From the NCBI GenBank assembly GCA_900234795.1, contig LT962688.1, forward strand, positions 3,540,001 to 3,572,000: 32,000 nt of DNA. The letters run 5' to 3'. The position numbers and the translations under genes were made by a program. The DNA is from Methylorubrum extorquens. Its GTDB lineage: Bacteria > Pseudomonadota > Alphaproteobacteria > Rhizobiales > Beijerinckiaceae. Shown one piece after another: positions 11,077 through 32,000 of this stretch (the first letter of the stretch is position 1; each line of letters starts with the position of its first letter). A model generated the notes under the pieces. That model saw only the letters and a program-made list of their open reading frames with translations. It had not been told where the DNA came from and did not search any database.

Positions 11077-11102
11077 GCGAGGAAAAAGGCCGCGTGAGCG
11101 AG
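11065..11102 (+). repeat. perfect 17-bp direct repeat (21-bp period) spanning the stop/start junction of the two coupled genes
   Basis: AAGGCCGCGTGAGCGAG occurs at 11065-11081 and again at 11086-11102. Each copy contains GTGA, the overlapping GTG start / TGA stop. Confidence 0.95.
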
Positions 11103-11396: not shown

Positions 11397-11418
11397 TCCT
11401 CGACTCGCACGGCGACGA

Positions 11419-15901: not shown

Positions 15902-15919
15902 GAAACTTCAGCCTCGTAA

Positions 15920-15937
15920 TTATAGCTGATGCTATAA
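15920..15937. promoter_or_regulatory. perfect 7-4-7 palindrome embedding a TATAAT box, 18 nt upstream of the receptor ATG (candidate metalloregulator operator/promoter)
   Basis: The minus strand reads AACTTATAGCATCAGCTATAATTACGAGGCTGAAGTTTCATG. TTATAGC-ATCA-GCTATAA is a perfect inverted repeat. TATAAT lies within its right arm and GAGG follows as the SD. Confidence 0.4.
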
Positions 15938-15975
15938 GTTCGAGCGTAGCCGTTGTCGAGTCGGGGCAGGCCCCG

Positions 15976-16015
15976 AAACGCGAAAGCGCGCCGCCCTCGA
16001 ACGAGGGCGACGCGC
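15976..16015 (-). terminator. rho-independent terminator downstream of ftsK
   Basis: The minus strand reads GCGCGTCGCCCTCG-TT-CGAGGGCGGCGCGC (14-bp stem, one mismatch) followed by TTTCGCGTTTC. It starts 37 nt after the ftsK stop. Confidence 0.55.
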
Positions 16016-16051
16016 TGGACGATCAATCGATGAAGGCGGCGGGTCGGCCGG

Positions 16052-18667
16052 TCAGTAAGCCTGCGGTTCGGGCTCGACGAGGATCTCGCGTTTTCCGGCG
16101 TGGTTGGCCGGTCCGACGAGACCTTCGGTCTCCATCCGCTCCATCAGCGAGGCGGCACGGTTGTAGCCGATCTGCAGGCGGCGCTGGATGTAGGAGGTGG
16201 AGGCCTTTTTGTCCCGCAGCACCACGGCCACCGCCTGCTCGTAGAGGTCACCGCTCTCGCCGCCGCCGCCGAACTGGCCGGCATCGAAGACCGGACCGTC
16301 CTCGGACGCAGGCCCCCCGGCCGGAATCTCGCCCTCCTCCGCCGTGACGGCTTCGAGGTAGGACGGCCGGCCCTGACGCTTGAGGTGGGCGACCACGGTC
16401 TCGACTTCCGAGTCCGAGCAGAACGGCCCGTGCACGCGCGTCGTGCGCCCGCCGCCGGCCATGAACAGCATGTCGCCCTGGCCCAGCAACTGCTCGGCGC
16501 CCATCTCGCCCAGGATCGTGCGGCTGTCGATCTTGCTCGTCACCTGGAAGGAGATGCGGGTCGGGAAGTTCGCCTTGATCGTGCCGGTGATGACGTCGAC
16601 CGAGGGGCGCTGCGTCGCCATGATGAGGTGGATGCCCGCCGCACGCGCCATCTGCGCCAGCCGCTGGATCGCGCCCTCGATGTCCTTGCCCGCCACCATC
16701 ATCAGGTCGGCCATCTCGTCGACCACGATCACGATGTAGGGCAGCGGGTTGAGGTCCATGACCTCGTCCTCGTAGACCGCCTCGCCTGTGGAACGGTCGA
16801 ATCCGGTCTGCACGGTCCGGGTCAGGGTCTCGCCGCGGGCACGGGCCTCTTCGAGGCGCGCATTGAAGCCGTCGATGTTCCGGACACCAACCTTGGACAT
16901 CTTCTTGTAGCGCTCCTCCATCTCGCGCACGGCCCATTTGAGGGCGATGACCGCCTTCTTCGGGTCGGTGACGACGGGGGAGAGCAGGTGCGGGATGCCG
17001 TCATAGACCGACAGTTCCAGCATTTTCGGGTCGACCATGATCAGGCGGCACTCCTCCGGCTTCAGCCGGTAGAGCAGCGACAGGATCATGGTGTTGATGG
17101 CGACCGACTTGCCCGAACCCGTGGTGCCGGCGACGAGCAGGTGCGGCATGCGGGCAAGGTCGGCGATGATCGGCTCGCCGCCGATGTTCTTGCCGAGGCA
17201 CAGGGCGAGCTTCTGCTTGGTCTCGACGAAATCCTCGGAGGCGAGAAGTTCGCGCAAGAACACCGTCTCGCGCTTGGCGTTCGGCAGTTCGATGCCGATG
17301 GCGTTGCGGCCGGGGACGACGGCGACACGGGCGGAGACGGCGGACATGGAGCGGGCGATGTCGTCGGCGAGCGCGATCACGCGGCTCGACTTGGTGCCCG
17401 GCGCCGGCTCCAACTCGTAGAGGGTGACGACGGGGCCGGGGCGCACGGCGAGGATGTCGCCGCGCACGCCGAAATCCTGCAGCGTCGCCTCCAGCATGGT
17501 GGCGTTCTGCTCCAGCGCCTCTGCCGAGACCTCAGAGCCGGGCGCCGCCTCGCGGGGACGGGCGAGAAGCTCCAGGGCAGGCAGCCGGTACTCGCCGGCT
17601 TCCGGCCGAGGTTCGGCCGGGCGCGGACGCGCCGCCGGGGCCTGCGGCAGCGGGCGGGAGACGCGGGTGGGCAGCTCGTCGGCGGTCGTCTCCGCCCCGG
17701 CGGCACTCGGCGCGGGGCGCTGGGGGACGGCACGGGCGGGCGCTTCGTCCGAATCGTCCTCCTCCGAGTCGAATTGCGGCTCGCGGCGGCCCGAGACGTC
17801 GGCCCGCTCGCGGGCCTGCGGCGCCCAGGGTGCCTCGTCCGAGTCGGCGAAGGCGCGGCGCGCGGCGAGCGCGGGCGAGGCGCCGGCATAGGCGAGCCCC
17901 TCCGCCTCGTCGGCCGGGGCCTGCCAGGATTCGAGCCGGGTGCGCAGCGAGGCGCGGCCGCGCATGACGGCTTGTGCGAGTGCGCCGAGCGACAGGATGC
18001 CGAGGCTCGGCTCGTCGGCATCGTGGCGCTCCTCGTGGGTCGAGGCACGGCCGGAACGGGGCGCCGGGCGCGCGGCGCCGTAGGGCCCCTCCTCGTCCTC
18101 CTCGAAGTCCGGCTTGGTCACGCGGCAGGCGGCGGTGAGGCTGAGGATGGCGGAGGCCGCGAACAGGAAGCCGGCGAAATGCGCCAGCGGCCCGACCAGC
18201 ATCCGCGTGCCGGCAAGCAGTGCGTCGCCCGCGACGCCGCCCATGCCGGTGGGCAAGGGCCAGCGATCCGTCGGCGGCAGGGCACTCGCGACCGCACTCG
18301 CGCAGAGAACGCCGACGAACCACAGGACGATGCGCAAACCGCCATGCGGCAGGTCGCGCTCGCGCATCAACCGCACGCCCCACAGGGCGGGAGGCAGTGC
18401 GAGCGCGATCGAGCCGAGCCCGAGAAGCTGCATGGCGAGGTCCGCCACGACGGCTCCGGGACGACCGAGCACGTTGTGCGCCCGTTGGTCGGTGGCGTGG
18501 TTGAGGCTCGGGTCGTTGATCGACCACGTCGCCAGGGCGACGGTCAACGCGACCGCGCCGGTAAAGAGGATCAGGCCGCCGCACTCCGTCAGCCGCTTGG
18601 CCAGGAATGGCCTCAGGCTGTCGACGAAGGTGTCGTAGGGCGACGCGGAACGGCGAAGGGAACGCAT
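16052..18667 (-). CDS. ftsK: DNA translocase FtsK
   Basis: 871 aa with ATG at 18667. It has N-terminal TM helices and a Pro/Ala/Glu-rich linker. Motor domain motifs are Walker [11 protein letters not shown] and Walker [15 protein letters not shown]-terminal gamma winged helix [29 protein letters not shown]. Confidence 0.95.
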
Positions 18668-18843
18668 GCGCAGACCGGTCCGGTGTCAACGATCCGGTAA
18701 GGCTAATGCGGGGCGGTTAACGCGGGGCTAAGTCTGCGCCGCAAAGCGGTGGACCGTCGGCGGCCGGGGTCCGGGCCAGGGTGCCGCCCGAAATGCAGGA
18801 AGCCCCGGATTTCTCCGAGGCTTCCCAAAGCGAGGTGGTGTCC

Positions 18844-18859
18844 CGCCGGCGAACCGGCG
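18844..18859 (-). terminator. short GC hairpin abutting the porin stop codon (weak terminator candidate)
   Basis: CGCCGG-CGAA-CCGGCG is a perfect 6-bp stem. On the minus strand it follows TGAAAACCG and lacks a clean U-tract. Confidence 0.25.
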
Positions 18860-18865
18860 CGGTTT

Positions 18866-20128
18866 TCAGAAGGTGAAGCCGGTCTCCACGAGGTAGCGCT
18901 CCTGCGAGCGCTTGGTGCCGTCGCGGCCGAAGCCGAAGCCGGGGGTCACGTCGTAGGCCTGGACGGTCGCGAACTCGCCGCGGAGGAAGTAGCGATCCCA
19001 GGTGAAGGTCGGGGTGATCGTGAACGAGAAGGCCGAGCTGCCCGGACCGTAGAGGACGCTGGTGCCGCCGCGGCCGGTGACCACGCCCCGCGTGCCCGAC
19101 TGCTCGATGTATTCGAGGCGGCCGGCGAGCGCGAAGTTGTCGGTGAAGGTGTAGCCGGCCAGCAGCGTGCCGCCCCAGGTCTCCGCGCCCTCGATCGGGG
19201 AGAAGTACCCCTCCTTGCGCGCGACGTTTGTGTACTGGAAGTACGGCGAGATGATCCACGGCCCGTTGGCGTAGGTGTAGTTCACGCTGATGATGCTGCT
19301 GTTCTGCAGCGAGTTGATCGTCGCGAACTGGAAGCGCGGGCTGCGGGTCGAGGCGTCGAAATCGCTGAAATGCGTGCCGCCGTTGATGCCGATCGTGTTC
19401 GCGTCGTTGAGCTTGTAGGTGGCAAAGCCCGTCACCCAGTTCAGCTCACCCGAGTAGAAGCCGTCGGTCACCGCGAGCGCGGCCGCGAACGGGCCGTTGG
19501 CGTAGTTCACCTGGACGCCGTGGTTGATGAAGTTCTCCTGGTTGAACAGCAGACCGCGGGAGATGTTCAGGTTCTGGTAGGTGAACAGCAGCTCGGAGCC
19601 GATGTTGGTGAACATCCGACCGGCCTGGATCGACCACTCGTCGTTGATCTGCCACTTGCCGAAGGCCACCGGGATCGGCCCGAACAGCGATTCGGTCTGC
19701 TCGAACGCGGAGTAGAGCGGCAGGCCGAGCGCCGGGATCGAGTACAGGCCGGCATGGACGTAGAATTGCAGCGGGCCGTCGGCCTTCTGGATCCAGCCCT
19801 GGAGGTTCGAGAAGTCGACGCGGCCGAAGCGGTCCTGCTCAGCGCTGGGCGAGAGGATGCCGAAGGCGTTGGTCTGGGTGTAGGCGAAGCCGGTGACCGC
19901 GCCGCCGACATAGATGTCGCCCAGTCCCGTCACGATGCAGGCCGGGTTCGGGTTCGCCTTGATGAGACCGCCGAAGGTCGGGGTGGAGATCGCAGCCTTA
20001 CAATGCTCCTCGACGATGACGGGCGCCGACTTGGCGGCGGGCATATCTGCGGCGAGGACTGGCAACGCGTTGATGCTCAGGGTGGAAAGCACCGCGGTCG
20101 CGGCCAGAAGCTTTGTTTTGATTGTCAT
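18866..20128 (-). CDS. outer-membrane beta-barrel porin, uncharacterised family
   Basis: Track ORF 18866..20185 starts at a TTG. ATG 20128 gives MTIKTKLLAATAVLSTLSINALPVLA-AD, a clean signal peptide; 420 aa. Alternating beta-strand pattern rich in G/Y/F/N/T. C-terminal signature YLVETGFTF. Confidence 0.7.
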   Translation of the reverse strand: MTIKTKLLAATAVLSTLSINALPVLAADMPAAKSAPVIVEEHCKAAISTPTFGGLIKANPNPACIVTGLGDIYVGGAVTGFAYTQTNAFGILSPSAEQDRFGRVDFSNLQGWIQKADGPLQFYVHAGLYSIPALGLPLYSAFEQTESLFGPIPVAFGKWQINDEWSIQAGRMFTNIGSELLFTYQNLNISRGLLFNQENFINHGVQVNYANGPFAAALAVTDGFYSGELNWVTGFATYKLNDANTIGINGGTHFSDFDASTRSPRFQFATINSLQNSSIISVNYTYANGPWIISPYFQYTNVARKEGYFSPIEGAETWGGTLLAGYTFTDNFALAGRLEYIEQSGTRGVVTGRGGTSVLYGPGSSAFSFTITPTFTWDRYFLRGEFATVQAYDVTPGFGFGRDGTKRSQERYLVETGFTF

Positions 20129-20180
20129 TGTAGTCAGCCCCACATTCGATACGGCCAAGGTGCCGAACTCGCCGCCGCGC

Positions 20181-20199
20181 CGCAAAATGAAGTTTTGCG
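20181..20199. other. perfect inverted repeat in the porin leader/promoter region
   Basis: CGCAAAA-TGAAG-TTTTGCG (7-bp arms), 53-71 nt upstream of the porin ATG. Confidence 0.3.
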
Positions 20200-20223
20200 C
20201 AAGTGCCTATTTTTTGGGCGTTT

Positions 20224-20237
20224 TTGACCTATATCAA
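20224..20237. promoter_or_regulatory. FNR/FixK-type box candidate
   Basis: TTGAC-CTAT-ATCAA matches the Crp/Fnr-family consensus TTGAT-N4-ATCAA at 9 of 10 positions. It is centred ~102 nt upstream of the porin ATG. Confidence 0.35.
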
Positions 20238-20251
20238 CCTGAGGGCGGAGA

Positions 20252-20271
20252 ATGTTGCACGAAGGCAACAT
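20252..20271. other. perfect inverted repeat ATGTTGC-N6-GCAACAT
   Basis: ATGTTGC-ACGAAG-GCAACAT, followed on the plus strand by CTTTT. It directly abuts the next hairpin. Confidence 0.3.
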
Positions 20272-20272
20272 C

Positions 20273-20308
20273 TTTTGAGGCGCACAAAACTGCACAATCG
20301 CCTCAAAA
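20273..20308. other. perfect 10-bp-stem inverted repeat with a 16-nt loop
   Basis: TTTTGAGGCG-cacaaaactgcacaat-CGCCTCAAAA. Confidence 0.3.
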
Positions 20309-20400
20309 CCGGATGCAATCTTTACGTTTTGTTGACTAAGCCGGCCGCCAAGCCCCGGAGCAATAAGGTGGAAGACGGCCCGGCATCACCCACAGGGCAT

Positions 20401-20462
20401 AAAAAAGGCCCCGGCGAATCACCGCCGAGGCCCTGGTTCAGGATGCCTGCCGAGACGGCAGG
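20401..20462 (-). terminator. amtB terminator region: two hairpins, the second a canonical rho-independent terminator
   Basis: The minus strand first shows CCTGCCG-TCT-CGGCAGG (20446-20462). It then shows GGCCTCGGCG-GTGATT-CGCCGGGGCC followed by TTTTTT (20401-20432), 8-70 nt after the amtB stop. Confidence 0.75.
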
Positions 20463-20469
20463 CCCTCAC

Positions 20470-21966
20470 TCAGTAGTTGTAGGCGCGCTCGCCGTGGTCG
20501 GCGATGTCGAGGCCCTCGCGCTCTTCTTCCTGCGTCACGCGCAGGCCGATCGTCAGATCGACGAGCTTGTAGAGGATCGCCGAGCCGATGCCGGACCACA
20601 GGATGGTGAAGCCCACCGCCTTCGCCTGGATGATGACCTGGGCGGCCATGTCGTAGGCACCGACGGTCAGTTCACCGGGCTTGGTGGTGTAGTCGGGGAT
20701 GCCGGCGCCGCCGAGATCGGGCGAGACCAGGATACCCGTGGCGATGGCACCGAGGATGCCGCCGATGCAGTGCACGCCGAACACGTCGAGGGAGTCGTCG
20801 TAGCCCAGCGCGTTCTTCACGGTGGAGCACATCACGAAGCAGATCGCGCCCGCGGCGAGACCCAGAACGATCGAGCCCATCGGGCCGGCAAAGCCCGCGG
20901 CCGGGGTGACGGCGACGAGGCCGGCAATGGCGCCCGAGAGCATGCCGAGGAGCGACGGCTTACCCTTGGCGGCCCATTCCACGAACAGCCAGGAGACGGC
21001 AGCAGCGGCAGTGGCGACGAAGGTGTTGATCATCGCCAGACCCGCGGCGCCGTTGGCTTCGAGGTTCGAGCCGGCGTTGAAGCCGAACCAGCCGACCCAG
21101 AGCAGCGAGGCGCCGATCGTGGTCATGGTCAGCGAGTGCGGAGCCAGCAGGTCGCGGCCGTAGCCGATGCGCTTGCCGAGCATCAGGCAGCCGACGAGGC
21201 CGGCGATGCCTGCGTTGATGTGCACGACGGTGCCGCCGGCGAAGTCGAGGGCGCCCCACTTGAAGAGCATGCCGGCATCGCCCAGCACCGCGTCGTACTC
21301 GGCCTTGGCCGCGGCATTGGCCTCGCCACCGGCGGCGGCGAGCTTGCGGGCCGCGTCGGCGAAGACGTCCGGGCCGCCCCAGTACCAAACCATGTGGGCC
21401 ATCGGGAAGTAGATCAGCGTGACCCAGAGGATCGTGAACACGACCAGCGCCGAGAACTTCATCCGCTCGGCGAAGGCGCCGACGATGAGGCCGGGGGTGA
21501 TCATCGCGAACGTCATCTGGAAGCAGATGTAGACGTATTCGGGGATCACGACGCCGTTGGAGAAGGTGGCCGCCACCGAGTTGGCGTCGACGCCCTTGAG
21601 GAAGGCCTTCGAGAAGCCGCCGACGAAGTCGTTGAGGCCGCCGCCATTGGTGAAGGCGAGGCTGTAGCCGTAGGTGACCCACAGCAGGCAGACGATCGAG
21701 GCGATCGCGAAGATCTGGGTCAGCACCGAGAGCATGTTCTTGGTGCGCACGAGGCCGCCGTAGAACAGGGCGAGGCCGGGCACGGTCATCAGAAGGACGA
21801 GGATCGCCGAGAGCAGCATCCACGCCGTGTCGCCCTTGTTGGGCACCGGTGCAGCCGCGGTGACGGCGGGCTCGACCGCCGGCGCCTGCGCGAGCGACGG
21901 CTCGACGAAGAGGAGGCCAAGGGCGGCTCCTCCCAGTCCGAGCGCGAGAAGATTACGAAGTTTCAT
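20470..21966 (-). CDS. amtB: ammonium transporter AmtB (with cleavable signal peptide)
   Basis: The track ORF starts at TTG 21972; ATG 21966 (MKLRNLLALGLGGAALGLL...) is preferred; 498 aa. Motifs LALFYGGLVR, DFAGGTVVHINAGIAGLV and SLDVFGVHCIGGILGAI (twin-His pore). Confidence 0.95.
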   Translation of the reverse strand: MKLRNLLALGLGGAALGLLFVEPSLAQAPAVEPAVTAAAPVPNKGDTAWMLLSAILVLLMTVPGLALFYGGLVRTKNMLSVLTQIFAIASIVCLLWVTYGYSLAFTNGGGLNDFVGGFSKAFLKGVDANSVAATFSNGVVIPEYVYICFQMTFAMITPGLIVGAFAERMKFSALVVFTILWVTLIYFPMAHMVWYWGGPDVFADAARKLAAAGGEANAAAKAEYDAVLGDAGMLFKWGALDFAGGTVVHINAGIAGLVGCLMLGKRIGYGRDLLAPHSLTMTTIGASLLWVGWFGFNAGSNLEANGAAGLAMINTFVATAAAAVSWLFVEWAAKGKPSLLGMLSGAIAGLVAVTPAAGFAGPMGSIVLGLAAGAICFVMCSTVKNALGYDDSLDVFGVHCIGGILGAIATGILVSPDLGGAGIPDYTTKPGELTVGAYDMAAQVIIQAKAVGFTILWSGIGSAILYKLVDLTIGLRVTQEEEREGLDIADHGERAYNY

Positions 21967-22098
21967 GGACAAGAAGCTCCAGATCGCAGTGCGTCGAGCG
22001 CTGAGGAGAATGGGTGGGCGGCGCGGCCGGGCGCGTTCCGCCGGAACGGGTGAAGAGCTGTCAGGGCATCGAAGAGGAAAGCGATGCGGGACAGAGTG

Positions 22099-22635
<537 letters not shown>

Positions 22636-22639
22636 CTAA

Positions 22640-22656
22640 TGCACAAAATATCGGCA
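22640..22656. promoter_or_regulatory. possible NtrC-type upstream activator site
   Basis: TGCAC-AAAATAT-CGGCA has a perfect TGCAC left half and a 3/5 right half. It lies ~90 nt upstream of the sigma-54 candidate. The adjacent palindrome GTTGC-C-GCAAC is at 22626-22636. Confidence 0.2.
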
Positions 22657-22699
22657 TAAAGTACTTTTGGGCGGCAGAATGCGCGCGAACCGGCTCGCT

Positions 22700-23563
22700 T
22701 CAGCTGCGCCGGGAGCGGATCAGCCCTTCCTGTGCAACGGAGGCGACGAGCCGCCCTTCCTCGTCGTGGAACGTGCCGCGGGCGAAGCCCAGAGCGCCCG
22801 ACGCGCTCGGGCTATCCTGCGAATAGAGCAGCCAGGAATCGGCCCGGAACGGGCGGTGGAACCACAGAGCGTGGTCGAGACTCGCCGACTGGATCTCGGG
22901 GTCGAACACCGTGCGGCCGTGGGGGATCAGCGTGGAATCGAGCAGCGTCATGTCCGAGGCGTAGGCCAGCACCGCCCGGTGCACCGCCGGATCGTCCGGC
23001 AGAGGCTTCGTCGCGCGCATCCAGACATGGTAGCGCGCGGGCCTCGGGCTGCGGTCGCGATAGCGCTCGGTCTCGACCGGCCGCAGCTCGATCGGCCAAG
23101 CCTGGGTGAAGTAGGCGAGCATCGGCTCGGGTACGATGCTGCCGCCGTCCCGGACGAGGGTCCGTGCATCCGCCAGCTCACCCGGTCCCGGCACATCGGG
23201 AAGACCGGCGGCGTGATCGACGCCCTCCTCCGTGATGTGGAACGAGACCGACATGGCGAAGATCGCCCGGCCCTTCTGGATCGCCTTGACCCGGCGGGTG
23301 GTGAAGCTGCCGCCGTCGCGGATGCGCTCGACCTCGTAGACGATCGGTACCGCCGGATCGCCGCCGAGGAGGAAATAGGCGTGCAGGGAATGGGGCGGGC
23401 GGAGCGCCTCGACCGTGCGGGAGGCGGCCACCAGCGCCTGCGCCACGACCTGCCCCCCGAACACCCGCGGCCAGCCGATTCGCGGGCTGATCCCGCGGAA
23501 CAGATCGGTCTCCAGGCGCTCCAGATCGAGGATCGCGAGGAGCGCGTCGACGGGGTCGGGCAT
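22700..23563 (-). CDS. tesB: acyl-CoA thioesterase II
   Basis: ATG at 23563 (MPDPVDALLAILDLERLETDLFRG...FGGQVVAQALVAA...SLHAYFL..GD...PIVYEVERIRDGGSFTTRRV.AIQ.GR.IF); 287 aa. Double hot-dog TesB pattern. Confidence 0.9.
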   Translation of the reverse strand: MPDPVDALLAILDLERLETDLFRGISPRIGWPRVFGGQVVAQALVAASRTVEALRPPHSLHAYFLLGGDPAVPIVYEVERIRDGGSFTTRRVKAIQKGRAIFAMSVSFHITEEGVDHAAGLPDVPGPGELADARTLVRDGGSIVPEPMLAYFTQAWPIELRPVETERYRDRSPRPARYHVWMRATKPLPDDPAVHRAVLAYASDMTLLDSTLIPHGRTVFDPEIQSASLDHALWFHRPFRADSWLLYSQDSPSASGALGFARGTFHDEEGRLVASVAQEGLIRSRRS

Positions 23564-23687
23564 GGCGGCTTCGCTGCGGCTTTCGAACGAGGAGGGCGGA
23601 CGGCCTGACCCGCGCGGCGGCACCGCGGAGGCCCGAAGGCACCGTCCGCACGGGGTGGAGAGTGATGAGGCGGGCGGCGCGGGTTGT

Positions 23688-23721
23688 GAAGGCCTGTCCG
23701 GTGCGAAGGTCTGGCCGGTGC
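23688..23721. repeat. tandem imperfect 17-bp direct repeat in the divergent tesB / giant-gene intergenic region
   Basis: GAAGGCCTGTCCGGTGC (23688-23704) is immediately followed by GAAGGTCTGGCCGGTGC (23705-23721), 15 of 17 identical. Confidence 0.9.
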
Positions 23722-23958
23722 CTGCGTGCCGCGGAGCCGGCCCGAAGCCGCCGATTGTCCCGAAAGCTTCACAGGACTGTTGTGGAGCGGCGCTAGCGAG
23801 GGGCCGGGGTGGAAACGAGCCGAAACCGTGCCTCCGGACCGTGATCGTCCTTCGCGGGGCGGTCGGAATCGGCGTGCGGATTCGGCCCCGGGCGAACCCC
23901 TTCGCTTCGCAGGACGCGGCAGCCGCGACAGGACTGCTCTGCCGCCTGGAGACGTACC

Positions 23959-26900
23959 ATGGCCACGAGCCTTGCCGCCGGTGACATCGCCATCGTCGGG
24001 TACGATGCGGACAACCCCGACGATTTCGCTTTCGTCGTCCTGCGGGACATTGAGGCCGGCACAGCCATCAGCTTCACAGATAACGGCTGGAGTTCGAGCG
24101 GCAACGCGCTTCGCACCAGCGAGGGCACCTACACCTACACCTACACGGCGCCGAAGGCCGTTGCGGCCGGCACCGTCATCCAGCCGACATCCGACGGCAG
24201 CGCGGGCGGCCCCGACAGCTCCGTCTACACGTCGGCCCTCGCCCCGAGCTTCTCGTTCAGCACCGACGGCGACCAGATCCTGGCCTATCAGGGCACCGCC
24301 GCGAACCCGACCTTCCTGTACGCGATCAACTTCGCCGACGGAGCAACCGGCTTCGCGGCCAACGGCACGAACGCCAACACCTCGGCCCTGCCGCCCGGCC
24401 TCGTCCTCGGGCAGACCGCCGTCGCGCTGGGCGCCGACAATGGCCGCTACGCCGGCACCCTCTCGGGCACCCGCGACGAGCTCCTGACCGCGATCGGCGC
24501 CGCCGGATCCTGGTCCCAGAGCGACACGGTCCGCATCGGCGCCCCCGGCTACAGCGCCTTCACGGTCACCACCGCGCCGACCATCCCGGCCCTGTCGATC
24601 GACGACGTGCAGGTGGCCGAGGGCGATACCGGCACCCGGCAGCTGACCTTCACGGTCTCCCTGACGGCGGCGGCCCCGTCGGGCGGCGTCAGCTTCGACA
24701 TCGCGACCGCCGACGGCACCGCCACCGCCGGCAGCGACTACGTCGCCCGGACCCTCACCGGCCAGTCCATCGCGGCCGGCCAGACCGCCACGACCTTCAC
24801 GGTGGACATCCCCGGCGACACGGTGATCGAGCCGACCGAGACCTTCACGGTCACGGTCTCGAACGTCCGGGGCGCCACGCTGGTCGACGGCCAGGGCACC
24901 GGCACCCTCATCAACGACGATACCGGCCCGCGCATCGGCGGCACCGCGATCTTCGAGGCGGCCCCCTCGCTCCAGGGCGTCTCCGGCGCCACGGCCACGG
25001 CGCCCCCGGTGCCGACGAACGCGCTTCAACTGGTGCGTCTCGGCGCCTACGCCGCGACCAACGATCCGGCGACGTCGGCCGCCCCCAACGCGGAGGTGGT
25101 GGCCTACGATTCCAGCACCGGCCGCCTCTACATTCAGAATACTGCCGAGAACCGCATCGAGATCGCCTCGCTCGACGCCACCGGCGCCCTGAGCAAGGCC
25201 GGCGAGATCCTGCTGTCCGGTCTCGAGCAATACGGTGCGGTGAACTCGGTCGCGGTCTTCAACGGCCTCGTGGCGGTCGCCTACGCCAACGCGGCCGGCG
25301 ATGCGCCGGGCCGGGTCGCCCTGTTCGATGCCAGCGGGACGCTGCTGCGCTCGCTGACCGTCGGCGTCGGCCCGGACCAGATCGTGTTCACGCGCGACGG
25401 CAGCCGGATCCTCGTCGCCAACGAGGGCGAGCAGGCGAGCGCGACCAGCAACCCGGTCGGCGGCGTCTCGATCATCGACGTCTCGGGCGGTGCGGCCAAC
25501 GCCGCCGTCACGGCGACGGTCGGCTTCGAAGGGCTCGACGGCAGCGAGGCCACCCTTCGCGCCCGCGGCCTTGCCATCAAGTCGGGCAACGGCGCGGCGG
25601 CCGACATCGAGCCCGAATACATCGCGATCTCGCCCGACGACCGCTTCGCCTACGTCACTCTGCAGGAGGTGAACGCCGTCGCGATCATCGATCTGACCAA
25701 TCCCGGCACGGCTCCCATCGCGATCCAACCGCTCGGGTCGGTGAACCATTTGCTGGCCGGAAACGAGTTCGACGCCTCCGACCGCGACGGGCCCGCCAAC
25801 CCGCAAGGCGTCGGCACGCCCTCGATCCGCATCGCGGCGACGCCCGCCAACGCCCCGATCTACGGCCTGCTTCAGCCGGACGCGGTGGCGAGCTTCTCGA
25901 CGGGCGGCGCGACCTACTTCGTCACGGCCAACGAGGGCGACCAGCGCGTCATCGGCGGCGGCGATGACACGGGCGATGTCGCCCGGCTCAGCAGCATCGC
26001 CAACAGCCGCCTGACCCCGGAGCTTCAGGCGCTGAAGGCCGACCCGGCCTATGCCCGCCTCAACGTCCTGCTGCGCACGGGCGACACCGACGGCGACGGC
26101 GTGATCGACCAGCTCCACACGCTGGGCGGGCGCGGCATCTCGATCTTCCGCCAGAACCTCGACGGCACGATCACCAAGGTGCGCGAGACCGGCGGCGAAT
26201 TCGAGAAGATCTTCGCGCAGATCGCGCCGGAACGGTTCAACAACGATCAGGTCACCGGCAACACGCCGGACGACCGTTCGGACAACAAGGGCCCCGAGCC
26301 CGAAGGCATCACGATCGGGACGGTCAACGGGCGGATCTACGCCTTCGTCGGCCTGGAGCGGCAGAGCGGCGTCATCGTCTACGACGTGACCGACCCGGCC
26401 AACGCGGCCTACGTCTCCTACGTCCCGCCCCAGCCCGGCGCGACCACCGATCTCGGCCCGGAGGTGCTGACCTTCATCGCCGCCGACCGCAACCCGACGG
26501 GCACGCCCCTTCTCGTCAGCGCCAACGAGGTCGCCAACGGTGGCGCGGTCGTCTACGCGGCCCTGCCCCAGGGCTTCACCCAGGAGGTCGCTTTTTCCGC
26601 GAACTCGCTCGCCGTGAGGCGGGCGGAGGGCGATACGGGTGAGACCGTGCTCACCTTCACGGTCGAGCGCAGCAACGGCACGCTGGGCGCCGTCACCTTC
26701 ACCGCCGAGATCACCGGCAGCGGTGCGAACGCGGCCGACGGAAGCGACTTCGCCGGTGCCCCGGCCCTGCCGCTGACGGTGACGGGCACGATCGCCGCCG
26801 GCGCCGCCTCCGCGCAGGTCAGCGTCCGCGTCCAGGCGGATGCCGTGCCGGAGGCGGACGAGACCTTCGCCCTGACCCTGCGCAGCGCCAGTTCGAACCA

Positions 26901-29900
26901 GCCCGGCATCGCGGCGGCGGTGCGCCCGGCGGCGGGCACCGCGACGGGCACGATCGTCAACGACGACGCGAGCCTGATCTCGGCGGTGCAGGGGGCCGGC
27001 GCGGCGAGCCCGCTGGTCGGCCGGACCGTCACGGTCGAGGCGATCGTCGTCGGCGACTTCCAGAACGGCGATGCCGACGCCAAGCGCAACCTCGGCGGCT
27101 TCTACCTGCAGGAAGAGGCGGCCGACCAGGACGGCAACCCGCTGACCTCGGAGGGCGTCTTCGTCTTCGAGGGCACCGGCAACCGCCTCGTCGATGTCAA
27201 CGAGGGTGACCGGGTGCGCGTCACCGGCACCGTGACCGAGTTCAACGGCGAGACCCAGATCGCGGTCTCGAACGCCGCGGCGGTCCAGGTGGTCCGCGCC
27301 GGTGCGCTGAGCCCGGCCGAGGTCAAGGCCGCGGCGGTCGCCGTCGAACTGCCGGCGGCGGGGGTCATCGGCACCGGCACCACCGCGCAGCCCGATCTGG
27401 AGCGCTACGAGGGCATGCTGGTCCGCTTCGCCCAGACCCTCTCGATCTCCGAGCAGTTCAACCTCGACCGCTTCAACGAGATCCGCCTCGCCGCCGGCGG
27501 CCGGACCGAGACCTTCACCAACGAATTCGAGCCGAACGCGGCGGCCTACGCCGCCTATCTCGCCCAGACGGCGGCGCGCTCGATCACCTACGACGACGGC
27601 TTCAACACCCAGAACCAGCCGGTCGAGAATCTGGACGGCTTCGGCCCGGTCTATGCCACCGCGACGGCGCCGCGCATGGGCGACACCGTGACCGGGCTCA
27701 CCGGCACCCTCGGCTTCGGCCCGGCCGGCGCCTACCGCGTGCGGGCGATCGACGACGGCGACAACCGCTTCGTCACGGCCAACCCGCGCCCCACCGAGCC
27801 CGACCCCGTAGGCGGCACGCTCAAGGTCGGCAGCCTCAACGTCCTCAACTACTTCACCACCCTCGACACCGGTTCGGCCGCCCGCACGGCGATCGGTCTC
27901 GAGCCGCGCGGCGCGAACTCGCCGGAGGAACTCGCCCGGCAGACGGAAAAGCTCGTCACGACCCTGATCGGCACCGGGGCGGACGTGCTCGGCCTGACCG
28001 AGATCGAGAACCAGTTCCGCCCGGGCGACCCTGGCAACGCGCTGGAATACCTCGTCGGTCAACTCAACCTGCGCGCGGGCGCCGGCACCTACGCCTCCGT
28101 GAATCCGGGCGCCCAGCTCGACCAAGGCCAGTTCCTCGGCGGCGACGCGATTGCGGTCGGCTTCATCTACAAGCCGAGCAAGGTCAGCGTGGCGATGAAC
28201 ACCACGATCGAGCGGCTCGACGATACGGACGTGGCGGCCTTCAACCCGGCCCTGCTGGAGCAGAGCACCCTCGGGCGCCTCTTCAACGGCGGGAACACCA
28301 GCCGTGCCGCGCTCGCGGTCACCTTCAACGAGATCGCCACCGGCGAGGACTTCACCGCAATCATCAACCACTTCAAGTCGAAGGGCGGCACCGGGACCGG
28401 CGCGGATGCCGACCAGGGCGACGGCCAGGGCGCCTGGCAGCAGCAGCGCGAACTCGCGGCCACGGCTTTGGCCCAGTGGGTCTCGATGCGGCCGACGGGC
28501 ACCCAGGACAGCGACGCGCTCCTGCTCGGCGACTTCAACGCCTATCTCAAGGAGGACGCGCTCGACATCCTCAAGGCGTCCGGGTTCACCAACCTCGCCG
28601 AGGACCGTATCGCCAACCCGTATTCCTACGTCTTCGATGGGGCCTACGGCGCGCTCGACCACGCCCTGGCCAGCGCGAGCCTGAACCGGCAGGTCACCGG
28701 CGTCACCGAGTGGCACATCAACGCCGACGAGGCGGACGCGATCGACTACAACCTCGATTTCGGCCGCTCGCCCAGCTCCTTCGACGGCCGCTCGCCCGCG
28801 CGGGAATCCGACCACGATCCCGTCCTCGTCGGCCTGCGCCTCGACCAGACCGCGCCGGTCCTCGTCGCCTCGACGCCGGCCGACGACGCCGCGCGGGTGG
28901 CCGTGAACGCCGACATCGTCCTGCGCTTCAGCGAGGCGGTCCGGGCCGGCACCGGCAGCATCACCCTCACCGACGGCGCCGGCGACCTGCGCACCATCGC
29001 GGTCTCGGACACCGCGCAGGTCGCGATCGCGGGCGACACCGTGACGATCAACCCGAGCGCCGATCTGCGGCCCGGGACCGCCTACGACGTGATCGTGCCG
29101 GCCGGCGCCTTCACGGACGCGGCCGGCAACGCCTCCGCCGCCATCCCCCAGAACCGCCTCGACTTCACCACTGAGCAGGCCAAACCGATGACCTACACGC
29201 TCCAGATCCTGCACGCCTCGGACTGGGAGGGCGGGCTGCTCGCGACCCAGCGCGCGGCGAACTTCGCGGCCATCGTCGATCGGCTCGAGGATACGACGCC
29301 GAACTCGATCACGCTCTCGACCGGCGATGCCTGGATCCCGAGCCCGTTCTACATCGCGGGGGCCGACCCGCAGATGGCGGCGACCTATAACGGCGTCTAC
29401 AACCAGTTCTACGGGCTGTCCGGCGCCGGCGCCTACGGCCGGCTCGCGGCCTCCCCCGGCCGGGCCGACATCACCATCCAGAACATCGTCGGCGTCCAGG
29501 CCGCGGTGTTCGGCAATCACGAGTTCGATGGCGGACCGACGGAGGTCGCCAACATCATCGGCGCCAATCTCGGCGCCGCGGCGGGTGCTGCCGACGACAC
29601 CTGGCTCGGCGCGCAATTCCCCTACCTGTCGGTCAACCTCAACTTCTCCCGCGAGGCCGCCCTGTCCGGCCTCGTTCACCGCGACGGCGACGGCGCCACC
29701 TTCGCCCAGACCGGCCCGACCTCGACTCAGACCGGCACCGGCGCGGACAAGATCGCCCGCTCGACGATCCTCGTCGAGAACGGCGAGCGAATCGCCGTCA
29801 TCGGCGCGACGACGCAGATCAACCCGCTGATCAGCACGCTCGGCAACGTCACGGTTGATGGGTTCACCGGCCGCGACGAGATCGCGCTGCTGGCGAGCCA

Positions 29901-32000
29901 GATCAACGCCGAGGTCGACCGGGTGCTCGCGGCCAATCCCGGCCTCAACAAGGTGATCGTCGGCACGCACCTGCAAGCGCTCTCCAATGAGCAGGCGCTG
30001 GCCCCGCTCCTGCGCAACGTCGACGTGCTGATCGGCGGCGGCTCCCACACCCTGCTCGCCGATGCCGACGACCGGCTGCTGTCCGGCGATCGGGCGGGCG
30101 GCGGCTACCCGCAATTCTTCACCAACGCCAGCGGCCAGACCCTGGCCCTGGTGAACACCGCCTCCGAATATTCCTATGTCGGCCGCCTCAACGTCACCTT
30201 AGACGACCAGGGCCACGTGATCCGCGACTCGATCAACCCGGCCACCTCCGGCGCCGTCGCGGTGGACGACACCACGGTGACGCAGCTCTACGGCTCGACC
30301 GCCGCCGCCTTCACGCCCGGCTCCAAGGGCTTCCTCGTGCAGCAGGTGATCGAGGGCCTGGACGTCAACAACGACGGCATCCAGGAGACCGCGGGCATCG
30401 CCGACATCATCCGCCAGCAGGACGGCAACATCCTCGGCCGCTCCAGCGTGTACCTGGAAGGCCGCCGCGGCGAGGTCCGCACGGAAGAGACCAACCTCGG
30501 CAACCTCACGGCGGATGCCAACCTCTGGTACGCCAAGCAGTTCGACGGGGCGGTCGCGGTCTCGATCAAGAACGGCGGCGGCATCCGCGACTCGATCGGC
30601 TCGTTCTCGACGACCGGCGGCAGCACGGCGGAGCTTCCCCCGGCCGCCAACCCGGCGGCGGGCAAGGCGGCGGGCGACATCTCGCAGCTCGACGTCACCA
30701 ACTCGCTGCGCTTCAACAACGCGCTCGCCATGGTCACGGTCACCGCCTCCGAGCTGGAGCGGGTGCTTGAGCACGCCGTCTCCTCGGCCGCTCCGGGTGC
30801 GACGCCCGGCGCGTTCCCCCAGATCGGCGGGATCAGCTTCTCGTTCGACGCGACCCGGCAGGCCCAGACCGTGGACGTCAACGGCACCGTCACCCGCGAG
30901 GGGCAGCGGATCATTTCGGCGGCAATCGTCGATGTCGACGGCTTTCTCGTCGACACCCTGGTGCAGGACGGCCAGCTCGTCGGCGATGCGAACCGGAGCA
31001 TCCGCGCGGTGACCCTCGACTTCCTCACCACGGGCACGAGCACGGCCCCGGGGCTCGGCGGCGACAACTACCCCTTCCCGGCCTATGGCGAGAACCGGGT
31101 GGCGCTGAGCAGCGCCGCGCCGGCCTCGCTGCCCAACGCCGCGACTTTCGCGGCCCAGGGCAGCGAGCAGGATGCGCTCGCCGAGTACCTCAAGGCGTTC
31201 CACAGCGTGACGCCCTTCGCGCAGTCTGACACGGCGCAGGCGGCCGACGCACGGATCCAGAACCTCGCTGCCCGCTCCGACAGCGTGCTCGCCCGCGGCG
31301 TCAGCCGGACGGGAGCCGAGGACAACGACGTGCTGCAGGGAACGCCCTTCGCCGACCGCCTCTTCGGCGGCGCGGGCGACGACATCATCGTCAACAGCGC
31401 GGGCGACGACGTCCTGTCGGGCGGGCGCGGCAACGACACGCTGGTGTTCAACACAAGCTTCGCGTCGGTCACCGTCACGGAGGCCGGCAGCCTCACGGCC
31501 ATCACCGGACCGGATGGCCGCGACCTCGTCAGCGGCTTCGAGCGCTACCTGTTCTCCGACGCCACGATCGTGGTGAACGACGGCCAGCCGCTCGTGGACG
31601 ACCTGTTCTACCTTTCCCGCAACAAGGACGTGTTCCAGGCCGGCCAGGACGCCGACGCGCACTACACCCAATACGGTGCCCGCGAAGGCCGCGACCCGAA
31701 TGCCTTCTTCTCGACCAAGGGCTATCTGGCGGCCAATCCCGAGGTGAGAGCCTCCGGGGCGAACCCGCTCGACCATTACGAGCAGGCCGGCTGGAAGGAA
31801 GGCCGCGATCCGGGCGTGCGCTTCGACAACGAGTTCTATCTCGCGGCCAATCCGGACGTGAAGGCCGCCGGCCTGAACCCGCTCGCGCATTACCTTGCCA
31901 ATGGCCAGGCCGAGGGCCGCGCGATCCATGACGCCGTCGGACGCAGCGGGGACATCCGCGGCGGCTTCGACGCGGAGTACTACCTGCTCGCCCATGCCGA
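23959..32000 (+). CDS. giant secreted multidomain hydrolase, 3'-truncated by the window end: unassigned N-domain, Calx-beta, phytase-like/choice-of-anchor-I beta-propeller, Calx-beta, ExeM/NucH extracellular nuclease (EEP fold), Ig-like module, 5'-nucleotidase/metallophosphoesterase, RTX repeats, 38-aa C-terminal repeats
   Basis: This gene is not in the ORF track because it has no stop in the window. My hand translation of frame 1 from ATG 23959 is open for 2,680 codons to nt 32000; GGAGA lies 8 nt upstream, and an in-frame TGA at 23842 with no other start between fixes the start. Calx-beta motifs: [23 protein letters not shown]...GSDY...TFTV...ETF.V (24590-24921 and 26587-26970). Propeller: [95 protein letters not shown] (25021-26565). 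Nuclease: [52 protein letters not shown] (26971-28845). 5'-nucleotidase: [27 protein letters not shown] (29188-31290). RTX: [9 protein letters not shown] and SGGRGNDTL (31312-31452). Confidence 0.9.
   Translation, partial: [2680 protein letters not shown]
24127..24146 (+). repeat. in-frame hexanucleotide microsatellite (ACCTAC x3.3) encoding TYTYTYT
   Basis: ACCTACACCTACACCTACAC, read directly from the sequence inside the N-terminal module of the giant gene. Confidence 0.95.

What the first reader, a model, noticed from the sequence alone, without database searches (positions are those of the whole stretch)
23959..32000. Untracked >2,680-codon gene fusing three phosphoester-hydrolysing enzyme classes on one RTX polypeptide
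The largest gene in the window is absent from the ORF track because it runs off the 3' end. In its place the track offers a 2,388-aa antisense ORF. Reading frame 1 from ATG 23959 gives an uninterrupted protein with the following domain order. (1) An unassigned module of ~210 aa. (2) Calx-beta (aa ~211-321). (3) A beta-propeller with choice-of-anchor-I/phytase-like motifs (aa ~355-869). (4) A second Calx-beta (aa ~877-1004). (5) An ExeM/NucH-type extracellular nuclease with an EEP catalytic core (aa ~1005-1629). (6) An Ig-like module (aa ~1630-1737). (7) A UshA-like metallophosphoesterase/5'-nucleotidase (aa ~1744-2444). (8) RTX nonapeptides and further repeats. Each catalytic unit is individually known from extracellular DNA or nucleotide or organophosphate scavenging; ExeM and UshA in Shewanella are examples. 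Chaining nuclease, then nucleotidase, then phosphatase-like propeller in one secreted chain suggests a processive eDNA-to-nucleoside-plus-phosphate salvage assembly line. The lack of a signal peptide and the presence of RTX repeats suggest type I secretion. To my knowledge this architecture has not been characterised experimentally.
Basis: partly seen in the sequence, partly recalled or inferred. Interest (0 to 1): 0.75.

Follow-up and report, generated by a model that had tools for sequence, protein, structure and literature searches.

The report
Giant secreted DNA-to-phosphate scavenging enzyme
This is a real ~2,800-residue Methylorubrum gene that joins a DNA-cutting enzyme, a nucleotide-dephosphorylating enzyme and a calcium-type propeller on one exported chain, probably to harvest phosphate from extracellular DNA; the parts and the pathway are known and only the fusion is untested.

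Summary
Frame +1 from ATG 23959 is open to the window end (2,680 codons, GC3 0.94). The 2,388-aa antisense ORF is a shadow (GC3 0.67). The gene is Methylorubrum extorquens (97% to a 2,796-aa protein NCBI already names "ExeM/NucH family extracellular endonuclease"), so only ~116 codons are missing.

- The ExeM/NucH nuclease is solid: 551 bits against a 300 cut-off, with catalytic residues invariant.
- The "UshA-like" unit belongs to the 5'-nucleotidase superfamily but to a distinct subfamily. Two canonical metal ligands are replaced (DxH→DxE, GH→GG).
- The propeller is a generic 7-bladed choice-of-anchor-I fold with no phytase or PhoX similarity and no known activity.

New support found here:
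- The three modules recombine in different orders across lineages.
- A Pho-box-like element is conserved upstream in 20 of 22 loci, and also upstream of split versions of the gene.
- A stand-alone copy of the C-terminal 1,055 residues sits next to a PrtD-type T1SS ABC gene in one genome.

No T1SS genes flank this gene itself. Processivity is unsupported. Verdict: an uncharacterised fusion variant of a well-known eDNA phosphate-scavenging pathway, of moderate interest.

The parts
23766..23783 (+). Conserved 18-nt promoter element GCTTCAC-AGGA-CTGTTGT (Pho-box-like: 8/14 to CTGTCAT-N4-CTGTCAT here, 9-12/14 in relatives)
   Evidence: TTCAC-N5-TGT is invariant in 14 aligned loci whose upstream genes differ. 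It is present at -189 to -228 in 20 of 22 loci. It occurs once per ~20-kb locus. The window has one match against 0.21 expected. The same element lies upstream of the stand-alone 5NT+RTX genes and of a COAI gene.
23794..23795 (+). Invariant TA 10 nt downstream of the element (candidate -10 core)
   Evidence: Invariant columns T166 and A167 of alignment A2. Reading this spacing as the Pho-box to -10 layout is an inference.
23948..23951 (+). Shine-Dalgarno GGAG, 7 nt before the ATG
   Evidence: Sequence. GGAG is invariant in all 14 aligned loci.
23959..32000 (+). Coding sequence, 2,680 codons, cut by the window end (~116 codons missing)
23959..24588 (+). N-terminal module (aa 1-210): widespread domain with no Pfam model, probably a divergent lamin-tail-like beta-sandwich
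   Evidence: No Pfam or PDB sequence hit. 3,289 cluster representatives at E<=1e-3, with 1-7 copies per protein. Also fused to Endonuclease_NS+RTX and to EEP+RTX proteins. The model is low-confidence (pLDDT 63, pTM 0.67), and its top 15 Foldseek hits are all lamin tail domains.
24601..24921 (+). Calx-beta 1 (aa 215-321)
25078..26538 (+). Choice-of-anchor I seven-bladed beta-propeller (aa 374-860); activity unknown
26632..26967 (+). Calx-beta 2 (aa ~892-1003)
27034..28842 (+). ExeM/NucH extracellular nuclease unit: OB-like region plus EEP catalytic core (aa 1026-1628)
   Evidence: NF033681 551 bits, model positions 1-546 of 546. PDB 9sf8/9sf9 at 1e-14, including the N-terminal OB part. SLNVLN, TEIEN, GDFN, LDH and SDHDP are invariant.
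28843..29172 (+). Big_5 Ig-like linker domain (aa 1629-1738)
29188..31290 (+). Atypical 5'-nucleotidase-family metallophosphatase (aa 1744-2444). Motif I is SD1755-W-E1757, GD is at 1789-90, GNHEFD starts at 1852, H2004 is retained, and GGS is at 2027-29
   Evidence: It begins at the residue that is the start Met of the stand-alone homologues.
31312..31449 (+). Short RTX block (~3 nonapeptides)
31588..32000 (+). Start of six ~38-aa C-terminal repeats (YLaaNPDVkaAGlNPLxHYxxxGwxEGRdP), cut by the window end; no Pfam family
22948..30114 (-). 2,388-aa antisense ORF: a non-coding shadow
   Evidence: GC3 0.67 against GC1 0.89.

Best explanation
The gene encodes a ~2,798-residue extracellular multi-enzyme of Methylorubrum extorquens.

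Shown: it is an intact gene with the domain order LTD-like module, Calx-beta, choice-of-anchor-I propeller, Calx-beta, OB+EEP ExeM/NucH nuclease, Big_5, atypical 5'-nucleotidase-family metallophosphatase, short RTX block, 38-aa repeats. The nuclease keeps all EEP catalytic motifs. The nucleotidase unit keeps the GNHEFD catalytic motif, the Arg-rich NGGGIR and RxxVRxxE motifs and the aromatic residues that align with the base clamp of solved 5'-nucleotidases, but has a subfamily-wide altered metal site.

Inferred: the chain is exported without a signal peptide by a type I secretion system encoded elsewhere, and folds on extracellular Ca2+ (RTX, Calx-beta, propeller). The nuclease cuts extracellular DNA/RNA to 5'-phosphorylated products. 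The neighbouring nucleotidase unit removes the phosphate, giving nucleosides plus Pi close to the cell. The LTD-like module probably targets nucleic acid or the envelope. The propeller is an accessory Ca-binding or substrate-binding module, or an undescribed hydrolase. Transcription is probably PhoB-activated from a Pho-box-like element about 190 nt upstream of the start codon. The benefit of fusion is co-export and co-localisation, not demonstrated processivity.
For: Gene and domains. EEP motifs are invariant across orthologues down to 50% identity, and there is a PDB relative. For the 5NT unit, a profile of 19 subfamily members hits T. thermophilus 5'-NT at 5.5e-47 and CD73 at ~1e-41, with GNHEFD, NGGGIR, RxxVRxxEtnLGnL, LrFnn and GGDnY aligned.

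Functional coupling of the modules: 29 proteins carry COAI+ExeM+5NT in at least four different orders, and 19 carry COAI+5NT in both orders. In L027 a COAI gene and a 5NT+RTX gene are divergent neighbours.

Pathway precedent: Synechocystis phoA-nucH form one Pi-stress transcript. A cyanobacterial 'phoA' has been re-identified as a 5'-nucleotidase, and JGI labels cyanobacterial members of this 5NT subfamily 'alkaline phosphatase'. V. cholerae uses Xds/Dns plus UshA/CpdB/PhoX, and xds is PhoB-dependent. ExeM needs Ca2+ plus Mg2+/Mn2+.

Pho regulation: the conserved 18-nt element is described under parts. The same element scores 9-12 of 14 against the rhizobial PHO-box consensus upstream of three stand-alone 5NT+RTX genes in unrelated contexts.

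T1SS: there are no Cys in 2,796 residues, D+E is 318 against K+R 161, there is no K/R or hydrophobic core at the N-terminus, and RTX repeats are present. P0122 is co-linear with residues 1742-2796 at 78% identity through the last residue, and is followed by a PrtD-type T1SS ABC gene.
Against: No T1SS genes lie near this gene or near any of the 20 orthologous loci, and neighbourhoods are not conserved. T1SS adjacency was seen for only one of four stand-alone paralogue loci. The RTX block is only about 3 repeats.

The window's own Pho-box match is weak (8/14), and a stricter scan found none. The element could simply be a -35-like TTCACA or the site of another regulator. No Methylobacterium pst promoter was available for comparison.

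Two of the canonical metal ligands of the nucleotidase are missing, so its activity and substrate are unproven. The propeller has no evidence of catalysis. There are no expression, secretion or activity data for any member.
Confidence: 0.6

Rival explanations
1. It is a biofilm-matrix or surface-remodelling factor. A large Ca-binding, Ig/Calx-rich RTX protein stays at the cell surface and trims extracellular DNA in the matrix, as ExeM and Xds do, with phosphate release as a side effect.
For: ExeM is needed for normal biofilm formation and stays cell-associated. The chain carries several Ig-like/Calx-beta/LTD-like spacer domains of the kind found in RTX adhesins. The N-module recurs in many surface proteins, including T9SS-sorted ones.
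Against: No LapA-type retention module or LapG/LapD partners were seen in the locus. A nucleotidase fused to the nuclease, and the Pho-box-like element shared with stand-alone nucleotidase genes, fit nutrient release better than matrix trimming.
Confidence: 0.2
2. It is a plant-interaction factor. The leaf or root coloniser degrades extracellular DNA and nucleotides (eDNA, eATP) that act as plant danger signals or traps, converting them to nucleosides.
For: Nuclease plus 5'-nucleotidase pairs are used for host evasion by pathogens (reviews listed). Methylobacterium/Methylorubrum are plant-associated (my own knowledge).
Against: Related fusions occur in marine, soil and cyanobacterial lineages with no plant link. 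The Pho-box-like promoter points to P nutrition.
Confidence: 0.08
3. The 5'-nucleotidase-like unit is not a nucleotidase. It is either a broad-specificity alkaline phosphatase/phosphodiesterase (like the cyanobacterial 'atypical PhoA') or a non-catalytic nucleotide-binding module, because two canonical metal ligands are lost.
For: DxH→DxE and GH→GG are invariant in the subfamily. Pfam Metallophos is below threshold. JGI names some members 'alkaline phosphatase'.
Against: Strict conservation of GD, GNHEFD, the motif-IV His and the nucleotide-binding motifs across hundreds of proteins argues for an active enzyme that binds nucleotides. A cyanobacterial 'phoA' was re-called as a 5'-nucleotidase.
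Confidence: 0.25

Closest known systems
ExeM (Shewanella oneidensis), NucH (Aeromonas, cyanobacteria) and Xds (Vibrio cholerae) extracellular nucleases
   Same: OB-like region plus EEP catalytic core matched end to end by NF033681. There is probably an LTD-like N-terminal module. It is extracellular, and Ca2+/Mg2+ dependence is expected.
   Different: ExeM is 871 aa, Sec-exported and has a GlyGly-CTERM/rhombosortase anchor. Here the ExeM-GG model scores 202 bits against a 1300 cut-off. There is no signal peptide, the nuclease lies in the middle of a 2,800-aa chain, and the C-terminus is RTX plus repeats.
Cyanobacterial phoA-nucH Pi-stress operon (Synechocystis sll0654-sll0656)
   Same: The partnership of an extracellular NucH nuclease with a large 'atypical' phosphatase under Pho control is the same. 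Cyanobacterial members of the same 5NT subfamily, and COAI+5NT two-module proteins, are labelled alkaline phosphatase.
   Different: These are separate genes, not one chain, and the Pho box (PyTTAAPyPy) is different. I could not retrieve Sll0654 itself, so its membership in this 5NT subfamily is inferred, not tested.
UshA / CD73 / T. thermophilus 5'-nucleotidase
   Same: Two-domain fold. GD, GNHEFD, the motif-IV His, NGGGIR and the aromatic clamp positions all align.
   Different: The His of DxH is Glu and the His of GGH is Gly throughout the subfamily. There are about 150 extra residues. The UshA equivalog scores 43.7 against 600.
Bacillus subtilis YhcR (nuclease fused to a 5'-nucleotidase-family domain)
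   Same: It is a characterised precedent for a high-molecular-weight extracellular nuclease with a unique multi-domain structure (cited). The nuclease-nucleotidase fusion itself is from my own knowledge of Oussenko et al. 2004.
   Different: The YhcR nuclease is a different catalytic class that releases 3'-nucleotides, it is sortase-anchored in a Gram-positive, and it has no propeller and no RTX.
MSP130 / choice-of-anchor I proteins
   Same: Seven-bladed propeller of the same Pfam/NCBIfam family, with predicted Ca2+ sites.
   Different: MSP130 proteins are linked to biocalcification and are not enzymes. Here the propeller is repeatedly fused to phosphoesterases.

Membership tests
ExeM/NucH family extracellular endonuclease (NF033681) | Full-length match to the family model above the curated cut-off | tested here: met
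   551 bits against 300, model positions 1-546 of 546, aa 1026-1628.
ExeM/NucH family extracellular endonuclease (NF033681) | EEP catalytic and metal-binding motifs (N, E, GDxN, D, SDH) | tested here: met
   SLNVLN, TEIEN, GDFN, LDH and SDHDP are invariant in an alignment reaching 50% identity, and they align to PDB 9sf8.
ExeM proper (NF033680, exonuc_ExeM-GG) | Sec signal peptide, GlyGly-CTERM anchor and equivalog-level score | tested here: not met
   202 bits against a 1300 cut-off. There is no signal peptide. The C-terminus is RTX plus repeats.
5'-nucleotidase / UshA family | C-terminal nucleotide-binding domain (PF02872) | tested here: met
   2e-17, 64 bits against 23.6. NGGGIR, RxxVRxxE and the aromatic positions align to 2z1a and 5h7w.
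5'-nucleotidase / UshA family | Canonical dimetal ligand set (D-x-H, GD, GNH, H, G-H) | tested here: not met
   Motif I is SD-W-E and motif V is GGGSH, where 'GGs' aligns to 'GGH' of 2z1a. This holds across the whole subfamily. Pfam Metallophos scores E 0.23.
5'-nucleotidase / UshA family | UshA equivalog score | tested here: not met
   NF007109 scores 43.7 bits against 600.
Choice-of-anchor I (PF22494 / NF038117) | Family model above cut-off and a beta-propeller fold | tested here: met
   278.6 bits against 32 and 427 bits against 300. The AF2 model has pLDDT 86 and pTM 0.90, and is a 7-bladed propeller by Foldseek.
Beta-propeller phytase / PhoX-type propeller phosphatase | Sequence or fold similarity to solved phytase or PhoX propellers | tested here: not met
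   No PDB sequence hit. None appear in the top 50 Foldseek matches. The best hits are hydrazine synthase beta, WD40 proteins, the 5hrm phosphotriesterase (TMq 0.50, 12% identity) and lactonases.
RTX type I secretion substrate | GGxGxD nonapeptides near the C-terminus, no N-terminal signal, acidic and Cys-poor | tested here: met
   HemolysinCabind 31.9 bits against 23, and 41.9 bits on the sub-sequence. There are 0 Cys, D+E is 318 against K+R 161, and there is no K/R in the first 15 residues. Only about 3 repeats are present.
RTX type I secretion substrate | Cognate ABC/MFP/OMP genes and demonstrated export | tested here: inconclusive
   None lie within 10 kb here or in 20 related loci. A stand-alone homologue of aa 1742-2796 is followed by a PrtD-type ABC gene (TIGR01842, 435 bits on a truncated 369-aa fragment) in one of four loci. 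Export cannot be tested with these tools.
Pho regulon member | PHO box (2 x CTGTCAT, 4-nt spacer) at the -35 position; PhoB-dependent induction | tested here: inconclusive
   The conserved element is at the right place but scores 8/14 here, and 9-12/14 in related promoters. Induction cannot be tested with these tools.

The most novel reading that the evidence does not exclude
The chain is a PhoB-controlled, T1SS-exported single-polypeptide 'DNA-to-phosphate' machine with two new biochemical features. First, the choice-of-anchor-I propeller is a third, so far undescribed Ca-dependent phosphoesterase or nucleic-acid-handling module, which would give the first biochemical function for the MSP130/COA-I family. 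Second, the DxE/GG 5'-nucleotidase subfamily, the likely home of the cyanobacterial 'atypical PhoA', uses a new metal centre.
Probability: 0.2. Interest if true: 0.6.

Novelty: new variant of a known kind. Interest (0 to 1): 0.42.

Why it matters
Extracellular DNA is a major organic phosphorus pool in soil, on leaves and in water. The nuclease-to-nucleotidase-to-Pi route is known only as sets of separate proteins in Vibrio, Shewanella and cyanobacteria. A single exported chain carrying the whole route would be a compact model for studying enzyme co-localisation outside the cell. Repeated fusion of the propeller to phosphoesterases gives a testable lead to the function of the choice-of-anchor-I/MSP130 family. 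The chain also points to a large, unstudied 5'-nucleotidase subfamily with an altered metal site that is often mis-annotated as alkaline phosphatase. None of this overturns current understanding, so the value is incremental.

Tried and rejected
- Canonical Pho-box scan (TGTCA-N6-TGTCA, up to 2 mismatches). No hit in the promoter, and the single hit lies inside the ORF.
- Sigma-70 and terminator scan of 23500-24100. Nothing found.
- Rfam scan of the ~190-nt leader. Only a sub-threshold chance hit (nhaA-II, 20 bits against 70).
- Synteny. Neighbours are unrelated housekeeping genes that differ between species. The ABC gene downstream in L002/3/4/7 is ABC-F type, not T1SS.
- Search for pstS/phoU in all fetched loci, to get a reference Methylobacterium Pho promoter. 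None found.
- Ray et al. 1991 (atypical PhoA) is not held in the library, so I could not verify the Synechococcus/Synechocystis PhoA sequence link directly.
- Methylobacterium secretome and Ruegeria exoproteome papers. Neither mentions this protein.
- Pfam on the C-terminal repeats. No family found.
- PDB sequence searches for the propeller and the N-module. Nothing found.
- 'Phytase-like' reading of the propeller. Rejected on fold evidence.
- The antisense 2,388-aa ORF as a gene. Rejected on codon-position GC.
Full report
OBSERVATION. Frame +1 from ATG 23959 is open for all 2,680 codons to the window end. The ORF lister does not report ORFs that run off the window. In this region it shows a 2,388-aa antisense ORF (22948-30114) instead. 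The window is ~70% G+C, where long spurious ORFs are expected, so I used codon-position GC to decide. The + frame has GC1/2/3 of 0.67/0.51/0.935, steady in every 900-nt slice. The antisense ORF has 0.89/0.56/0.67. The + frame is the gene and the antisense ORF is its shadow. ATG 23959 is the only start codon after the in-frame stop at 23842. It is preceded by GGAG at 23948-23951. The N-terminus MAT[ST]LAAGD and the GGAG are conserved in orthologues.

DOMAINS.
- Calx-beta at 215-321 and ~892-1003.
- Choice-of-anchor I at 374-860 (1.4e-82; NF038117 427 bits against 300).
- ExeM_NucH_DNase at 1026-1628 (551 bits against 300, whole model).
- Big_5 at 1629-1738.
- 5_nucleotid_C at 2160-2360.
- HemolysinCabind at 2452-2486.
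The one predicted hit that fails is Pfam Metallophos (E 0.23).

SOURCE AND COMPLETENESS. The best database match is a 2,796-aa Methylorubrum extorquens protein, 97% identical over the whole query, which NCBI already names 'ExeM/NucH family extracellular endonuclease'. The window therefore lacks about 116 codons. Its locus (L001) has the same upstream genes as the window: tesB-like thioesterase, glnK, amtB, a porin, ftsK and a TonB receptor. Downstream it has a hypothetical gene, a TRAP transporter, transketolase, an SDR and a LysR regulator. No ABC/MFP/TolC genes lie within 10 kb on either side. Twenty Methylobacterium/Methylorubrum reference genomes carry a full-length relative of 2,775-2,881 aa. 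Their neighbourhoods differ from species to species, and none contains a T1SS.

NUCLEASE UNIT. The ExeM/NucH call is firm. The EEP motifs SLNVLN, TEIEN, GDFN, LDH and SDHDP are invariant down to 50% identity. The unit aligns to the recently solved EEP proteins 9sf8/9sf9 at 1e-14, including the N-terminal OB-like part. It is not an ExeM orthologue. The ExeM-GG model scores 202 bits against 1300, and the Sec signal and GlyGly-CTERM anchor described for ExeM are absent.

NUCLEOTIDASE UNIT. Residues 1744-2444 belong to the 5'-nucleotidase superfamily. The single sequence hits T. thermophilus 5'-NT at 2.7e-21 and CD73 at ~1e-17. A 19-member profile hits them at 5.5e-47 and ~1e-41, but hits UshA at only ~1e-12. 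The unit defines a large separate subfamily, with 1,680 clusters at E<=1e-10 in alphaproteobacteria, cyanobacteria and Bacteroidota.

In that subfamily the motifs H-A-S-D-x-E, GD, GNHE-D, the motif-IV His and GGS are invariant. So the His of D-x-H is Glu, and the His of G-H is Gly ('aGGsntlL' aligns to 'gGHsHtlL' of 2z1a). The catalytic GNHEFD, the Arg-containing NGGGIR and RxxVRxxE motifs, and the aromatic residues at the positions of the base clamp are all kept (residue roles in CD73/UshA are from my own knowledge). I conclude that it is an active, nucleotide-binding phosphoesterase with a non-canonical metal site. 'UshA-like' holds only at superfamily level (UshA equivalog 43.7 bits against 600).

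PROPELLER. A 24-row alignment gave a confident model (pLDDT 86.4, pTM 0.90). Foldseek against the PDB returns generic seven-bladed propellers: hydrazine synthase beta, WD40 proteins, a YVTN S-layer propeller, 6-phosphogluconolactonases and the Sphingobium phosphotriesterase 5hrm (best TMq 0.50, 12% identity). No beta-propeller phytase or PhoX appears in the top 50. There is no PDB relative by sequence. The only papers that mention the family concern MSP130 biomineralisation proteins with predicted Ca2+ sites. The 'phosphatase-like/phytase-like' label is therefore not supported, and catalysis is unproven.

N-TERMINAL MODULE. This module has no Pfam or PDB sequence match, but it is a very common domain. 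It has 3,289 cluster representatives at E<=1e-3, with one to seven copies per protein. A sample of carriers includes a protein with this module plus Endonuclease_NS plus RTX, one with Big_5 plus EEP plus RTX, and T9SS-sorted proteins. Its model is of low confidence (pLDDT 63, pTM 0.67), yet the top 15 Foldseek matches are all lamin tail domains (probability 0.96-0.99). The lamin tail domain heads ExeM. A divergent LTD-like targeting module is the best reading, held loosely.

ARE THE MODULES FUNCTIONALLY COUPLED? I used the window's segments as phmmer queries on all retrieved proteins. Twenty-nine proteins carry propeller plus nuclease plus nucleotidase, in at least four orders:
- COAI-ExeM-5NT in Methylobacterium and Xanthobacter.
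- ExeM-COAI-5NT in Salipiger.
- 5NT-5NT-COAI-ExeM in P0060.
- 5NT-COAI-..-ExeM in P0066.
Nineteen more carry COAI plus 5NT in either order. In one Methylobacterium lineage the parts are separate, divergently transcribed neighbours: a COAI protein of at least 1,614 aa and a 910-aa 5NT+RTX protein. Repeated independent fusion and adjacency argue that the three modules work on one task. This is the best evidence that the propeller belongs to the same process.

SECRETION. The complete orthologue has no cysteine in 2,796 residues. It is strongly acidic (D+E 318, K+R 161). It has no basic or hydrophobic N-terminal signal, about three RTX nonapeptides, and six ~38-aa C-terminal repeats that match no Pfam family. 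These are typical of type I substrates (established knowledge of RTX proteins).

A stand-alone protein, P0122, is co-linear with residues 1742-2796 at 78% identity through the last residue, and starts at the equivalent Met. In Methylobacterium sp. J-090 it is followed 852 bp downstream, on the same strand, by a PrtD-type T1SS permease/ATPase (TIGR01842, 435 bits on a contig-truncated 369-aa fragment). Three other stand-alone loci have no T1SS neighbour. Type I secretion is therefore likely but rests on indirect evidence.

REGULATION. A strict Pho-box scan found nothing. However, I aligned 342 nt upstream of the gene from 14 loci with different upstream genes. This showed an invariant TTCAC-N5-TGT inside an 18-nt block (window 23766-23783), an invariant TA 10 nt downstream, and the GGAG. 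The block is present at -189 to -228 in 20 of 22 loci. It occurs once per ~20-kb locus and once in the window, against 0.21 expected.

The same block lies upstream of stand-alone 5NT+RTX genes in unrelated contexts:
- L030: GTTTCAT CGCC CTGTCAT (12/14 to the consensus).
- L026: TTTTCAC GCAA ATGTCAT (10/14).
- L028: GCTTCAT TTCA CTGTCGC (9/14).
It also lies upstream of the separate COAI gene in L027. The rhizobial PHO box is two CTGTCAT repeats with a 4-nt spacer. The window copy matches at only 8/14, so PhoB control is a reasonable hypothesis and not a finding. The element may instead be a -35-like TTCACA or another regulator's site.

COMPARISON WITH WHAT IS KNOWN. The chemistry is a known pathway carried out by separate proteins.
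- In V. cholerae, Xds/Dns cut eDNA, then UshA, CpdB and PhoX release Pi. xds and phoX are PhoB-dependent.
- In Shewanella, ExeM is a Ca2+ plus Mg2+/Mn2+ endonuclease.
- In Synechocystis, phoA and nucH are one Pi-stress transcript.
- A cyanobacterial 'phoA' has been re-identified as a 5'-nucleotidase, and JGI calls cyanobacterial members of this 5NT subfamily 'alkaline phosphatase'.
B. subtilis YhcR is a characterised nuclease with a unique multi-domain structure (cited). What is different here is the fusion of all parts, plus a propeller, on one signal-less RTX chain, and the altered metal site of the nucleotidase. I found no experimental work on any protein of this architecture.

VERDICT. Two of the three proposed enzyme classes are real. 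The third, the propeller, has unknown activity. 'UshA-like' and 'phytase-like' are too specific, and processivity is unsupported. Type I secretion and Pi control are plausible and gained indirect support here. The protein is already annotated and widespread in its genus, and the pathway is known. It is an uncharacterised architectural variant of a known kind, of moderate interest (0.42).

Noticed in passing
window 23959-24588; proteins P0255-P0402: The N-terminal 210-aa module is a very common domain with no Pfam model: 3,289 cluster representatives at E<=1e-3, up to 7 copies per protein. It is also fused to Endonuclease_NS+RTX and to EEP+RTX nucleases, and to T9SS-sorted proteins. A low-confidence model resembles lamin tail domains.
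   Followed up: partly
window 31588-32000; P0001 residues 2542-2796: There are six ~38-aa C-terminal repeats (F-x3-YLaaNPDVkaAGlNPLxHYxxxGwxEGRdP) after the RTX block. They match no Pfam family and are shared with the stand-alone 5NT+RTX proteins. They may be part of the secretion or Ca-folding region.
   Followed up: partly
L015-L019 (M. frigidaeris, M. platani, M. komagatae and relatives): A natural variant of 2,483-2,494 aa lacks exactly the N-module plus the first Calx-beta. It keeps the MATT start and goes straight into the propeller, a clean domain-level indel.
   Followed up: no
L014 (Methylobacterium alsaeris) 10001-13522 and following ORF: The gene is split into 1,173-aa and 1,706-aa ORFs. 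This is either a frameshifted pseudogene or an assembly error.
   Followed up: no
window 23689-23722: A 17-nt unit GAAGGyCTGkCCGGTGC is duplicated in tandem upstream of the conserved promoter element. The 97%-identical locus L001 has one copy.
   Followed up: no
window ~24135-24150 (aa 57-63): The protein reads TYTYTYT where the closest orthologue has TYTYT, a 2-codon repeat-length difference.
   Followed up: no
alignment A2, M. aquaticum-clade loci L005-L018, -200 to -20 of the start: Beyond the 18-nt element, the ~200-nt leader has several blocks conserved within this clade (CCCATACAGAGCGAACACAGTCCGAAACA, CGAACGATCGCGGGCGAGCC, AAGCCCTAACAGC, and a GC hairpin before the SD). The upstream genes differ. 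There is no Rfam match for the window's leader.
   Followed up: partly
L028 13212-14399 (-): Next to a stand-alone 5NT+RTX gene lies a gene with an APP1_cat (phosphatidate-phosphatase-type) domain. This may be another phosphate-related neighbour.
   Followed up: no
L006 18836-20875 (+); L020 upstream (-): Downstream of the orthologue in M. ajmalii is a 679-aa Peptidase_M10 + serralysin-C + Hint_2 protein, which is another likely T1SS substrate. In M. oxalidis a second giant gene (2,346 aa) is divergent from the orthologue.
   Followed up: no
window 8758-23623: The rest of the window is ordinary chromosome: a molybdopterin oxidoreductase, an HWE/PAS histidine kinase, a TonB-dependent receptor, ftsK, a BBP2 porin, amtB-glnK and a tesB-like thioesterase. 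None of these relate to phosphate or secretion.
   Followed up: yes
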